Shown: positions 41,801 through 44,800 of the stretch, piece by piece | Layout: each line of letters begins with the position of its first letter | Numbering within the stretch: position 1 is the first letter of the stretch | Origin: Escherichia coli O157:H7 | Lineage (GTDB): Bacteria > Pseudomonadota > Gammaproteobacteria > Enterobacterales > Enterobacteriaceae | Length of the DNA stretch: 64,000 nt | Assembly: GCF_013167455.1 (NCBI RefSeq) | Contig: NZ_CP038328.1 | Direction: 5' to 3' (one strand) | Program-made: the position numbers

Positions 41801-44800
41801 GCGGGTGATGCGTGATCTGATAAAGCAGCATCGTTCTCCCATGGAGCTGATGACGATGCTGCGGTGACGTGAGCTTAAACGGGCTGCCCCTGATGCGACA
41901 TCCGCGTCGCCAGCGGTAGCCAGCACAGCACGATCAACAATCCCATTAAGGTCATCAACAACCCCAGGCTGCCCTGACCGGTTTGCGGCAACATCGCAGA
42001 GAGCGACGCCAGCACGCCGGAACCAATGTTTTGTAGACCGCCGACCAGCGCGCCAGCCGTGCCCGCCAGGAAAGGGAACGGCTCCATCGCGCCGCTGGTC
42101 GCCAGCGGAAACAGCATCCCGGCACCGAAAAAGAACAGCGCGGCGGGAACGAGCAGCGTCCAGACATTCATCACGCCAAACCAGTCGGGGATCCACATCA
42201 GTAAGCCAGCCAGCAGGCAGCAGATAACCGACTGCCACATCAACGTTGAGAAGCGTTTATTAGGACGTCCGGCAAACCATGCCCCAAAAAATGCCGCCGG
42301 AATCGGCAGAATAAACAAAATACTGACCGTCATACTGCTCAGCCCTAACACCGCGCCCATCAGCACGCCGGAGCAGGCTTCAAAGGCGGCAATCCCGGCC
42401 AGACCGCCAATCAGCATCAGCAAATAACAGTTAAAACCGCTGTTACCGAAAAGCGTTTTATAACTGGTAAGCAGGCGCGTGCGCGGTGCGTCGACCGGAC
42501 GCGTTTCCGGCATCCAGCGGGCCATACTGAAGGTCACACCGGCACAAAGTACCAACAAAAAGAGATAACAGGCGCGCCAGTTCCACATCGTATCCAGCAG
42601 ACCGCCGATTAGCGGTGCGAGCAACGGACTGACAAGAATTCCCATGTTTAACAGGCTGTTAGCGTGGCGCAACTGTGTCCGTTCATATAAATCACGCGGC
42701 AAAGTACGCGCCATTACGCCGCCAACGCCGGTGCCCATCCCCTGCATCGCGCTGGCGGCAATCAATACTGTCAAACTGGAGGTCGTGACCGCGACCAGCG
42801 TTGCCAGCATAAAAATGGACATTCCGACGAGGATCACCGGTCGGCGACCCACACGGTCGGAAATCGGGCCATAAAACAGCTGTGAGACACCGTAAGTCAG
42901 CAGATAAGCGCCCATTACGCTCTGCACCGCCCCTTCACGAACGTTGAGATCGCGCGCCATATCGGCAATAGCTGGAATATAAATGGTTTGCGCCATCTGA
43001 CCGACGGCCACGAGTAATACCAACATCAATAACAAATTGATGTTTCTATGCCTTTTCATTATCACGGATGCTTTTATAAAAATAATTAGAATAAGTCACT
43101 ACGCATTCCCATAAATGCGGGAGAGGAATCTATCATATTGATAAATGTTAGCCAGATATACGCCAGGAATGGGGAATTGTTTAGCGGCAGAATATGTAAA
43201 CAAAAGCGGCAATAAATGTTGCCGGGAGGGATGGTAGGTCGGATAAGATGCGTCAGCATCGCATCCGACACCAACCCACACGCTAAATATAAAATGGGAG
43301 CGGTTACCCGCTCCCCTTTAGTGCGACTTGAATCTGAATTACTTCAGGTATTTCAGAACAGCATCAAGCAGTTGCAGTGCTGCAACAATGAGTTTGAGGA
43401 TAAGAATGGCGATATCCACCAGGCTCATACGCGTCTCCTGTGGTTCAGGAGCACTGCCAGCTGACGTACCTTTCCGCTGCCTGTTGCCAGCTGTTGTGCA
43501 CGCGGTATCTCAAGGAGAAACGTTGTGCTCGTTGACATAACACAGTGTGCTCACGCGGGGTTAAGGCGCTGACGGCACCACCCGTTTCAGCCAGGACTTA
43601 GTGCGCCGGGTAACGATGCGGCCCCCGCATAACACATTGCGTACAGTGATATTATAGAAGCTTGCTGTATAAATAAACAGTAATATTTGGACAAAACGCA
43701 AACTGTGATCGATACTCAACTATGCACTAAATACGTCAAAATTCGTGCCGAAATTGCGCGTTTTGCGCGGAACACGTATACTTTCTGTGTTGACATAATA
43801 CAGTGTGCTTTGCGGTTACCAGCCGCGGGCGGCTGACGAAACCTCGCTCCGGCGGGGTTTTTTGTTACCTGCAGTACAGTACAAAACGTGATCAACCCCT
43901 CAATTTTCCCTTGCTGAAAAATTTTCCATTGTCTCCCCTGTAAAGCTGTGCTTGTATAAATATTGTTAAACACAAAACCAACAAGGTCCCCAATGGCTAC
44001 TTCCATGCTCAACGCAAAACTACTACCAACTGCGCCATCCGCCGCAGTGGTCGTCGTGCGTGTGGTGGTGGTCGTCGGCAATGCGCCGTAGGGACTGGAA
44101 CAACACACGATTCCAAAACCCCGCCGGCGCAAACCGGGCGGGGTTTTTCGTTTAAGCACCTCCCGGAAAGTCGGCCCAGAAGAAAAGGACTGGAGCATGG
44201 CAAGTTCGGGCACATCATCGACGCGTAAGCGCTTTACCGGCGCAGAATTTATCGTTCATTTCCTGGAACAGCAGGGCATTAAGATTGTGACGGGCATTCC
44301 GGGCGGTTCTATCCTGCCTGTTTACGATGCCTTAAGCCAAAGCACGCAAATCCGCCATATTCTGGCTCGCCATGAACAGGGCGCGGGGTTTATCGCTCAG
44401 GGAATGGCGCGCACCGACGGTAAACCGGCGGTCTGTATGGCCTGTAGCGGACCGGGGGCGACTAACCTGGTGACCGCCATTGCTGATGCGCGGCTGGACT
44501 CCATCCCGCTGATTTGCATCACTGGTCAGGTTCCCGCCTCAATGATCGGCACTGACGCCTTCCAGGAAGTCGACACCTACGGCATCTCTATCCCCATCAC
44601 CAAACACAACTATCTGGTCAGACATATCGAAGAACTCCCGCAGGTCATGAGCGATGCCTTCCGTATTGCGCAATCAGGCCGCCCTGGCCCGGTGTGGATA
44701 GACATTCCTAAGGATGTGCAAACGGCCGTTTTTGAGATTGAAGCACAGCCCGCGGTGGCAGAAAAAGCCGTCGCGCCCGCCTTTAGCGAAGAAAGCATTC

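What the first reader, a model, noticed from the sequence alone, without database searches (positions are those of the whole stretch)
43339..43870. tisB toxin, LexA box and IstR-1-like sRNA with a 21-nt repeat marking the antisense pairing region
tisB is present (29 aa). A perfect-spacing LexA box lies at 43665-43680. The 21-mer GTTGACATAA(C/T)ACAGTGTGCT occurs in the tisAB leader region (43531-43551) and again at the 5' end of a short terminator-ended transcript on the opposite coding strand (43789-43809). Because tisAB is transcribed from the minus strand, an RNA made from 43788-43864 is complementary to the tisAB mRNA over that stretch, as expected for IstR-1. This is known SOS-linked type I toxin-antitoxin biology, but neither element appears in the ORF track.
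Basis: partly seen in the sequence, partly recalled or inferred. Interest (0 to 1): 0.3.

Follow-up and report, generated by a model that had tools for sequence, protein, structure and literature searches.

The report
Known E. coli tisB/istR-1 toxin-antitoxin locus

Summary
tisB (29 aa) lies at 43339-43428 (-). The LexA core CTGTATAAATAAACAG lies at 43665-43680. The 21-mer direct repeat lies at 43531-43551 and 43789-43809, with none expected by chance.

The region is 100% identical over 701 bases to E. coli O157:H7 and O145 chromosomes. It is about 97% identical to K-12, where tisB, IstR-1 and IstR-2 are annotated. Mapped from K-12, IstR-1 is 43791-43863 (+), or from 43789 judging by the -10 box, and IstR-2 is 43724-43863. 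Rfam istR (RF01400) matches 43734-43863 at 145 bits against a cut-off of 45. TisB passes the Pfam and NCBIfam cut-offs.

A direct DNA repeat plus divergent transcription gives complementary RNAs: 20 Watson-Crick pairs and one G.U, extended by one more G.U to 22 pairs at -37 kcal/mol. In 13 loci from other Enterobacteriaceae the repeat, the LexA box and the toxin are all kept. One base pair changes from A-U to G-C on both sides.

The mechanism is published: LexA repression, 5' processing, a ribosome standby site, IstR-1 blocking that site, and RNase III cleavage. Verdict: already known, low interest.

The parts
43339..43428 (-). tisB coding sequence, 29 aa plus stop. It is the N2S allele relative to K-12.
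   Evidence: ORF list. RefSeq annotation of identical DNA. Pfam PF13939 at 37.6 bits against a cut-off of 25. NCBIfam NF011340 at 69.9 against 53 and TIGR04459 at 61.5 against 38. N2S is reported as the dominant E. coli variant and as toxic (PMC11264685).
43434..43439 (-). tisB Shine-Dalgarno sequence AGGAGA, predicted to be buried in a hairpin.
   Evidence: Read from the sequence. The hexamer is the one listed in PMC11264685 Table 1. Predicted probability of being unpaired is about 0.2 in the +1, +42 and +106 forms.
43425..43538 (-). tisA ORF, 37 aa. It is reported as not translated, and its AUG lies inside the IstR-1 target.
   Evidence: No Pfam or NCBIfam match. The start codon is ACG in 8 of 14 loci and the frame is not conserved. 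PMC11264685 states there is no experimental evidence of translation.
43531..43551 (-). IstR-1 target in the tisAB mRNA leader, which is the ribosome standby site (copy A of the 21-mer repeat).
   Evidence: It lies about 100 nt upstream of the tisB AUG, as published (PMC6690012).
43288..43644 (-). Approximate tisAB primary transcript. The +1 at about 43644 is inferred from the -10 box. The 3' end is inferred from the terminator hairpin at 43296-43315 plus its T-run.
   Evidence: -10 TATAAT at 43651-43656 (hexamer per PMC11264685). Terminator-like site. With +1 at 43644 the published +106 RNase III product would start at 43539, inside the duplex. These ends are inferred, not mapped.
43651..43656 (-). 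tisAB promoter -10 hexamer TATAAT.
   Evidence: Read from the sequence. Same hexamer as in PMC11264685 Table 1.
43663..43682 (.). LexA box TGCTGTATAAATAAACAGTA (core 43665-43680). It overlaps the -35/spacer region of the tisAB promoter and ends 5 bp upstream of the istR-2 -35 hexamer.
   Evidence: Aligned with the K-12 box TACTGTATAAATAAACAGTA. A CTG-N10-CAG box is kept at the same relative place in 14 other loci. LexA control is published (PMC4147584, PMC5668327).
43688..43716 (+). istR-2 promoter: -35 TGGACA, 17-nt spacer, -10 GATACT.
   Evidence: Promoter scan. Same hexamers as in PMC11264685 Table 1.
43724..43863 (+). IstR-2, the longer SOS-induced form (140 nt by the K-12 annotation).
   Evidence: K-12 annotation mapped through alignment A1. 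Rfam RF01400 covers 43734-43863.
43753..43782 (+). istR-1 promoter: -35 TTGCGC (43753-43758) and -10 TATACT (43777-43782).
   Evidence: Read from the sequence. Same hexamers as in PMC11264685 Table 1.
43789..43863 (+). IstR-1 antitoxin sRNA. Nt 1-21 (43789-43809) are copy B of the repeat. Stem-loop 1 and a Rho-independent terminator follow.
   Evidence: Rfam. K-12 annotation maps to 43791-43863. Fold energy -31.2 kcal/mol, z = -2.66, with nt 1-12 unpaired; the opposite strand gives z = -0.14. Terminator. The choice of 43789 rather than 43791 as the 5' end is inferred from the -10 spacing.

Best explanation

LexA binds the box at 43663-43682 and represses the minus-strand tisAB promoter, and also the plus-strand istR-2 promoter. 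After DNA damage the tisAB mRNA is made. The primary transcript is translationally inert, because its 5' end folds over the standby region and the tisB ribosome-binding site is buried in a hairpin. Removal of the first 41 nt exposes a single-stranded standby site about 100 nt upstream of tisB, at 43551..43531. There 30S subunits load, through ribosomal protein S1, before sliding to the tisB start.

IstR-1 (about 43789-43863, + strand) is made constitutively. Its 5' 21 nt pair with exactly that site, which blocks standby binding and triggers RNase III cleavage to an inactive +106 mRNA. When tisAB mRNA outnumbers IstR-1, the 29-aa hydrophobic TisB inserts into the inner membrane, depolarises it, lowers ATP and promotes drug-tolerant persister cells.

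Shown here: the identity of every sequence element, the complementarity, the folds, and conservation across genera. Taken from the literature and not tested here: LexA binding, processing, standby loading, RNase III cleavage, toxicity and persistence.
For: The 701-base query is 100% identical to O157:H7/O145 chromosomes. 5419 of 5426 E. coli genomes match at least part of it, 4150 over at least 80%. It is collinear with K-12 at 97% identity, where tisB, IstR-1 and IstR-2 are annotated on the expected strands. Rfam istR matches full-length at 145 bits against a cut-off of 45. TisB passes Pfam and two NCBIfam equivalog cut-offs. The 21-mer repeat is unique in the window, with none expected by chance. 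The tail-target duplex is 22 bp at -37 kcal/mol. Cofolding whole IstR-1 with the +42 leader gains about -31 kcal/mol over the two monomers. IstR-1 folds with a free 5' tail, one stem-loop and a terminator (z = -2.66), and the opposite strand does not. All published promoter hexamers, the SD and the LexA core are present (PMC11264685 Table 1). In 13 loci from Citrobacter, Salmonella, Pseudenterobacter, Siccibacter, Franconibacter and two unnamed Enterobacteriaceae, the repeat (0-1 mismatch), the LexA-like box and a TisB homologue keep the same layout. Across these, 98% of duplex cells pair, and pair 7 switches from A-U to G-C on both sides. The predicted +1 fold pairs the 5' end with the first half of the target, and the SD is buried in all forms. 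The mechanism is described in PMC4147584, PMC6690012 and PMC5668327.
Against: Nothing contradicts it; the caveats are minor. Covariation is statistically weak (57 of 500 shuffles reach the observed score), because the duplex is nearly invariant and my search pattern fixed part of the tail. Thermodynamic prediction only weakly reproduces the opening of the standby site (mean probability unpaired 0.32 in +1 against 0.43 in +42). That prediction also rests on an inferred +1. This allele differs from K-12 at LexA box position 2 (A to G), at IstR-1 nt 39 and 44, and at TisB residue 2. The effects of the first two were not tested here.
Confidence: 0.97

Rival explanations
1. The elements are present, but this allele is regulated differently from K-12. 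The A-to-G change at LexA box position 2, plus a neighbouring change at 43661, would weaken or alter LexA repression. The two U-A to U.G changes in IstR-1 stem-loop 1 would lower antitoxin stability. Together these would give leakier TisB expression in the O157:H7/O145 lineage.
For: The window differs from K-12 at 43661 and 43664. The exact 56-nt allele occurs in at most 522 of 5426 genomes, while most carry the K-12 form. PMC11264685 reports that 93.5% of loci have the MG1655 LexA site. IstR-1 differs at nt 39 and 44, and the predicted fold is 1.3 kcal/mol weaker. PMC11264685 found the TisB N2S allele more toxic at low induction.
Against: The core CTGT-N8-ACAG is intact. TGCTG half-sites occur in functional LexA operators such as the lexA gene's own box 1; that is from my own knowledge and was not tested here. 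The predicted IstR-1 structure is unchanged. The pairing region, promoters and SD are identical to K-12. PMC11264685 saw no difference in persister formation between N2S and K-12 TisB.
Confidence: 0.1
2. The functional antitoxin is the longer LexA-controlled IstR-2 (43724-43863) rather than IstR-1. The short form would be only a processing product or a by-product.
For: IstR-2 contains the whole IstR-1 sequence, including the 21-nt tail. It has a recognisable promoter next to the LexA box. The Rfam model covers the long form.
Against: istR-1 has its own conserved promoter, TTGCGC/TATACT (99.8-100% conserved per PMC11264685). In the predicted IstR-2 fold the tail is partly paired internally. [quoted passage not shown]
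Confidence: 0.02
3. The 21-nt repeat is a chance match or a fossil duplication with no RNA-RNA function, and the hairpins at 43801-43861 merely terminate some other transcript.
For: Similarity between the two regions does not extend beyond the 21-mer (local alignment score 16, reached by 13% of shuffles and of other window segments). So there is no wider homology to explain the repeat.
Against: No chance matches in 100 shuffles. The repeat is kept at 0-1 mismatch in 13 other Enterobacteriaceae loci, with a two-sided A-U to G-C change. There is a full-length Rfam match. Published genetics and biochemistry support the interaction (PMC4147584, PMC6690012).
Confidence: 0.01

Closest known systems
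tisB/istR-1 (tisAB-istR) type I toxin-antitoxin locus of E. coli K-12 MG1655 (b4618 / b4616)
   Same: The flanking genes are the same: emrD, ysdE, ivbL and ilvB. The layout is the same, with divergent, non-overlapping toxin and antitoxin genes and a LexA box between them. Both copies of the 21-nt repeat are identical, including the single C/T difference. So are the promoter hexamers, the SD, the tisA ORF and the terminators. Identity is 97% over 600 nt.
   Different: There are allelic differences only. TisB is N2S, which is the majority E. coli allele (PMC11264685). LexA box position 2 is A to G, with a neighbouring T to C. IstR-1 nt 39 and 44 are A to G (U-A to U.G). There is one loop change in the IstR-2-specific hairpin and a few intergenic SNPs.
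[quoted passage not shown]
   Same: In all of them a small hydrophobic toxin and a divergently transcribed sRNA pair through a short repeat-derived complementarity in a long 5' UTR. The toxin mRNA needs 5' processing. dinQ is also LexA-controlled (PMC5668327, PMC4147584).
   Different: The toxin and RNA families differ. The sequence here matches the TisB and istR models specifically. According to PMC5668327, AgrB acts by a structural rearrangement that sequesters the SD, not by blocking a standby site.

Membership tests
TisB toxin (Pfam PF13939; NCBIfam NF011340 / TIGR04459) | The sequence scores above the curated family cut-offs over its full length. | tested here: met
   PF13939 at 37.6 bits against 25. 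NF011340 at 69.9 against 53 and TIGR04459 at 61.5 against 38, covering residues 1-29 of 29.
TisB toxin (Pfam PF13939; NCBIfam NF011340 / TIGR04459) | A peptide of about 29 aa, mostly hydrophobic, that is toxic and depolarises the inner membrane. | not testable with these tools
   Length and hydrophobic composition can be read from the sequence. Toxicity of this exact N2S variant is reported in PMC11264685 and was not tested here.
IstR sRNA (Rfam RF01400) | A covariance-model score above the gathering threshold, full length, on the strand opposite tisB. | tested here: met
   145 bits against 45, model positions 1-130 of 130, + strand 43734-43863.
IstR sRNA (Rfam RF01400) | The same position and strand as the annotated reference istR, next to tisB. 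| tested here: met
   K-12 IstR-1 (3853118-3853190, -) and IstR-2 (3853118-3853257, -) map to window 43791-43863 and 43724-43863 (+), divergent from tisB.
IstR sRNA (Rfam RF01400) | A 5' tail with about 21 nt of complementarity to the tisAB 5' UTR. | tested here: met
   20 Watson-Crick pairs plus 1 G.U over 21 nt; 22 bp at -37 kcal/mol with one more G.U. Conserved in 13 other loci.
IstR sRNA (Rfam RF01400) | A stable RNA of about 75 nt is expressed, and it represses TisB through RNase III cleavage and standby-site occlusion. | not testable with these tools
   Only the promoter hexamers, the terminator and the fold could be checked. The experiments are in the literature for K-12 (PMC4147584, PMC6690012).
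LexA (SOS) regulon member | A LexA box, CTGT-N8-ACAG within the 20-bp consensus TACTG(TA)5CAGTA, overlapping the promoter. | tested here: met
   TGCTGTATAAATAAACAGTA at 43663-43682 overlaps the -35/spacer region of the tisAB promoter. It aligns with the K-12 box. A CTG-N10-CAG box is kept in 14 other loci.
LexA (SOS) regulon member | LexA binds the box, and transcription is induced by DNA damage. | not testable with these tools
   Published for K-12 (PMC4147584, citing Fernandez de Henestrosa 2000 and Vogel 2004). The O157-type box differs at position 2, and that variant was not tested.
Standby-site-dependent type I TA regulation | The target region is sequestered in the +1 mRNA and single-stranded in the +42 mRNA, and the tisB RBS is buried. 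| tested here: inconclusive
   With an inferred +1 at 43644, the +1 fold pairs nt 1-22 with nt 84-105. The target's mean probability of being unpaired is 0.32 in +1 and 0.43 in +42. The value for the SD-AUG region is about 0.2 in all forms. The direction agrees with the published model, but the effect is small and rests on prediction only.

The most novel reading that the evidence does not exclude
The minority O157:H7/O145-type allele would set a different SOS threshold or basal leakiness for TisB. That would shift persister frequency in enterohaemorrhagic E. coli. The allele combines three changes from K-12. LexA box position 2 is A to G, with a neighbouring change. IstR-1 stem-loop 1 has two U-A to U.G changes. 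TisB carries N2S.
Probability: 0.1. Interest if true: 0.25.

Novelty: already known. Interest (0 to 1): 0.05.

Why it matters
It matters only as a quality check. It shows that the first-stage reader can recover a 29-aa toxin gene, an unannotated sRNA and their short antisense pairing site from raw sequence, and can get the strand logic right. Biologically, tisB/istR-1 is a textbook SOS-induced persister module and the model system for ribosome standby. Finding it at its usual place between emrD and ilvB in an O157:H7-type genome adds nothing new. A practical point: RefSeq annotation of identical O157:H7 genomes lists tisB but not istR, so the sRNA is an annotation gap rather than a discovery.

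Tried and rejected
1. Wider duplication. I asked whether istR-1 and the tisAB leader are a larger ancient duplication, prompted by short extra direct repeats (D3, D6) and a long duplexfold pairing. Local alignment of the sequences beyond the 21-mer scored 16. That score was reached by 13% of shuffles and 13% of other window segments. Shuffled IstR-1 sequences also gave large duplexfold energies (mean -56.8, best -76.1, against -78). Rejected: only the 21-22 nt are significant.

2. Covariation as independent proof of pairing. There is one two-sided change (pair 7, A-U to G-C) and two wobble changes. But 57 of 500 shuffles reach the observed score. This is supportive, not decisive. The search pattern also fixed part of the tail, which biases the sample.

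3. Thermodynamic reproduction of the +1 to +42 switch. It gave only a small change in the accessibility of the target.

4. Weak Rfam hits in the region (naRNA4, P6, STnc310, Termite-leu, RsmY) are all far below their gathering scores. They correspond to a REP element and to terminator hairpins, and I dismissed them.

5. Three hits of the genome-wide pattern scan (Agathobacter, and Meiothermus twice) have no repeat, LexA box or toxin. They are chance matches.

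Full report
**Observation**

The sequence at 43100-44100 and the six-frame ORF list show a 29-aa minus-strand ORF at 43339..43428, MSLVDIAILILKLIVAALQLLDAVLKYLK. A 37-aa ORF lies upstream of it and overlaps it, at 43425..43538 on the minus strand.

The motif CTGTATAAATAAACAG sits at 43665-43680.

The 21-mer occurs twice on the + strand: GTTGACATAACACAGTGTGCT at 43531-43551 and GTTGACATAATACAGTGTGCT at 43789-43809. Allowing three mismatches, these are the only two matches in the 64-kb window, and none of 100 shuffles produced any match.

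The bare LexA core motif is not statistically remarkable on its own, with 2 found against 0.76 expected. Its significance comes from position and conservation, covered below.

Downstream of the second repeat copy there is a stem-loop and a G+C-rich hairpin followed by TTTTTT, ending at 43863.

All the stated coordinates are correct.

**Identity of the region**

A 701-base query (43250-43950) is 100% identical to chromosomes of E. coli O157:H7, O145 and related strains. It matches at least partly in 5419 of 5426 complete E. coli genomes, and 4150 of them cover at least 80% of it.

In those RefSeq records the neighbours are emrD, ysdE, tisB, ivbL and ilvB. tisB is annotated and istR is not.

In K-12 MG1655 the same region carries tisB (3853553-3853642, +), IstR-1 (3853118-3853190, -) and IstR-2 (3853118-3853257, -). 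The window is the reverse complement of the K-12 orientation and aligns without internal gaps at 97% identity.

Mapped through that alignment, IstR-1 corresponds to window 43791-43863 (+) and IstR-2 to 43724-43863 (+).

The -10 box TATACT at 43777-43782 would place a start at about 43789, the first base of the repeat.

**Family tests**

- Rfam istR (RF01400) matches 43734-43863 on the + strand, full length, at 145 bits against a gathering score of 45. It is the only istR match in the window.
- TisB passes Pfam PF13939 (37.6 against 25) and the NCBIfam equivalogs NF011340 (69.9 against 53) and TIGR04459 (61.5 against 38).
- The tisA ORF matches nothing.

**Regulatory anatomy**

The hexamers that PMC11264685 (Table 1) lists for MG1655 are all present:

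| Element | Sequence | Window position | Strand |
|---|---|---|---|
| tisAB -10 | TATAAT | 43651-43656 | - |
| tisB SD | AGGAGA | 43434-43439 | - |
| istR-1 -35 | TTGCGC | 43753-43758 | + |
| istR-1 -10 | TATACT | 43777-43782 | + |
| istR-2 -35 | TGGACA | 43688-43693 | + |
| istR-2 -10 | GATACT | 43711-43716 | + |

The promoter scan found the istR-2 pair on its own.

The 20-bp LexA box at 43663-43682 overlaps the -35/spacer region of the tisAB promoter. It ends 5 bp upstream of the istR-2 -35 hexamer.

A terminator-like hairpin for tisAB lies at 43296-43315 on the minus strand.

**The pairing**

tisAB is read from the minus strand and istR from the plus strand.

The C/T difference at repeat position 11 gives a U.G wobble. 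The duplex is 20 Watson-Crick pairs plus one wobble, extended by one further U.G to 22 bp at -37.0 kcal/mol. Cofolding whole IstR-1 with the +42 leader segment gains about -31 kcal/mol over the two monomers.

IstR-1 alone folds with nt 1-12 free, one stem-loop and the terminator, at -31.2 kcal/mol and z = -2.66. The opposite strand shows no such signal, z = -0.14.

K-12 has exactly the same two repeat copies, including the C/T difference.

**Conservation outside E. coli**

One pattern scan of the species-representative genome collection, built from conserved istR positions, returned 17 loci. Three are chance hits (Agathobacter, and Meiothermus twice).

The other 14 are Enterobacteriaceae: Citrobacter (seven), Salmonella arizonae and diarizonae, Pseudenterobacter, Siccibacter, Franconibacter, two unnamed genera, and E. 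coli.

In the 13 with enough upstream DNA, three features are kept:
- The 21-mer recurs as a direct repeat 247-257 nt upstream, with 0 or 1 mismatch.
- A CTG-N10-CAG box lies 113-124 nt upstream of istR-1.
- Most show a TisB-like ORF (for example MSIVDITILILKLIVAALQLLDAVLKYLK and MGGVDLAILILKLIVAVLQLLDAVLKFFR) 66-103 nt downstream of the target.

Counted as an intermolecular helix, 98% of cells pair. Pair 7 is A-U in three distinct sequence types and G-C in three, a two-sided change. Two pairs vary through wobble, and three cells are A.C mismatches.

Statistically the covariation is weak, because 57 of 500 shuffles reach the observed score and the helix is almost invariant. The search pattern also fixed part of the tail. 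I treat this as supportive only.

**Mechanism, from the literature**

These steps were not tested here.

- tisB and istR-1 are divergent and non-overlapping. DNA damage induces tisB but not istR-1.
- IstR-1 has 21 nt of complementarity to the tisB 5' UTR. Overexpressed IstR-1 blocks TisB toxicity, and tisB mRNA rises in rnc or istR-1 mutants (PMC4147584).
- The primary +1 mRNA is inert. Removing 41 nt gives the active +42 form, with a single-stranded standby site about 100 nt upstream of the RBS.
- IstR-1 pairs across that site, and RNase III cleavage gives the inert +106 form. 30S binding to the site needs ribosomal protein S1 (PMC6690012).
- The 5' UTR structure acts as a second brake alongside IstR-1 (PMC5668327).
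- IstR-2 is made only during SOS and does not repress tisB (PMC11264685).

With an inferred +1 at 43644, the target is +94..+114, the tisB AUG is +217, and +106 falls inside the duplex.

The predicted +1 fold pairs nt 1-22 with nt 84-105, and the SD is buried in every form. Predicted opening of the target is modest, 0.32 rising to 0.43.

**Allelic detail**

The window differs from K-12 in four ways:
- TisB is N2S. PMC11264685 reports this as the majority allele (85%) and as toxic.
- LexA box position 2 is G instead of A (43664), and the neighbouring base at 43661 also differs.
- IstR-1 nt 39 and 44 (43827, 43832) are G instead of A. This turns two U-A pairs into U.G without changing the predicted fold.
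- There are a few other intergenic SNPs.

The exact 56-nt promoter/LexA allele is found in at most 522 of 5426 genomes, and most carry the K-12 form. That fits the 93.5% figure in PMC11264685.

Whether this alters regulation is untested. It is the only reading with any novelty, and I rate it at about 10%.

**Rejected ideas**

A larger duplication relating istR-1 to the tisAB leader is not supported, because similarity beyond the 21-mer is at chance level. The sub-threshold Rfam hits in the region are a REP element and terminator hairpins.

**Verdict**

This is the already known tisB/istR-1 locus at its normal chromosomal place. Interest is low.

Noticed in passing
window 43661 and 43664 (LexA box flank): The LexA box reads TGCTGTATAAATAAACAGTA, where K-12 has TACTGTATAAATAAACAGTA, and there is one more change 3 bp upstream. 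The exact 56-nt allele is in at most 522 of 5426 complete E. coli genomes, O157:H7 among them. Most genomes carry the K-12 form.
   Followed up: partly
window 43827 and 43832 (IstR-1 nt 39 and 44): There are two A-to-G differences from K-12 in the 3' arm of IstR-1 stem-loop 1. They convert U-A pairs to U.G. The predicted structure is unchanged, at -31.2 against -32.5 kcal/mol.
   Followed up: partly
window 43536-43538 (tisA start codon) and loci L005, L007, L009, L014-L018: The tisA AUG lies inside the IstR-1 target. It is ACG in 8 of 14 Enterobacteriaceae loci, and the downstream frame and stop are not conserved. Even E. coli strain E69 has a different frame. This fits the literature view that tisA is not a translated gene.
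   Followed up: partly
window 43628-43639: There is a third, partial copy of the repeat, CATAACACATTG (11 of 12 identical to copy A). It lies at about +6..+17 of the inferred tisAB mRNA. In the predicted +1 fold this 5' segment pairs with the first half of the standby region, which may correspond to the published inhibitory 5' UTR element.
   Followed up: partly
window 43230-43275: A REP-type palindromic element lies between ysdE and the tisAB terminator. It gives sub-threshold Rfam naRNA4 hits on both strands.
   Followed up: no
window 43141-43215 (+): The small protein gene ysdE is annotated here in RefSeq, as a 75-nt CDS. By the coordinates, the annotated start falls on ATA at 43141, one codon inside the TTG-started ORF at 43138..43215 listed.
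   Followed up: no
window 43993-44091 (+) and about 44106-44167: The ilvB leader peptide gene ivbL is here (MATSMLNAKLLPTAPSAAVVVVRVVVVVGNAP, T2A relative to my recollection of K-12). Its G+C-rich attenuator hairpin follows, upstream of ilvB (44197..45885). The weak Rfam P6 and STnc310 hits here reflect only that terminator.
   Followed up: no
window 18004-18084 (-), 28984-29056 (+), 23561-23603 (-): Three other Rfam matches in the window score above their gathering thresholds: AsdA (antisense RNA of dnaA mRNA, 101.9 bits), the ROSE_2 RNA thermometer (100.4 bits) and the ES036/CssrF sRNA (47.4 bits).
   Followed up: no
window 11391-11406: The only other CTGT-N8-ACAG match in the window is CTGTCTTTTTTCACAG. 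Its T-rich spacer is unlike the (TA)n of LexA boxes, so it is probably a chance match.
   Followed up: no
E. coli genome collection: Only 4150 of 5419 matching genomes cover at least 80% of the 701-nt locus. Only 3886 of 5426 match the 56-nt promoter/LexA segment. So a sizeable minority of E. coli genomes seem to lack an intact tis/istR locus, in line with the presence/absence variation reported in PMC11264685.
   Followed up: no
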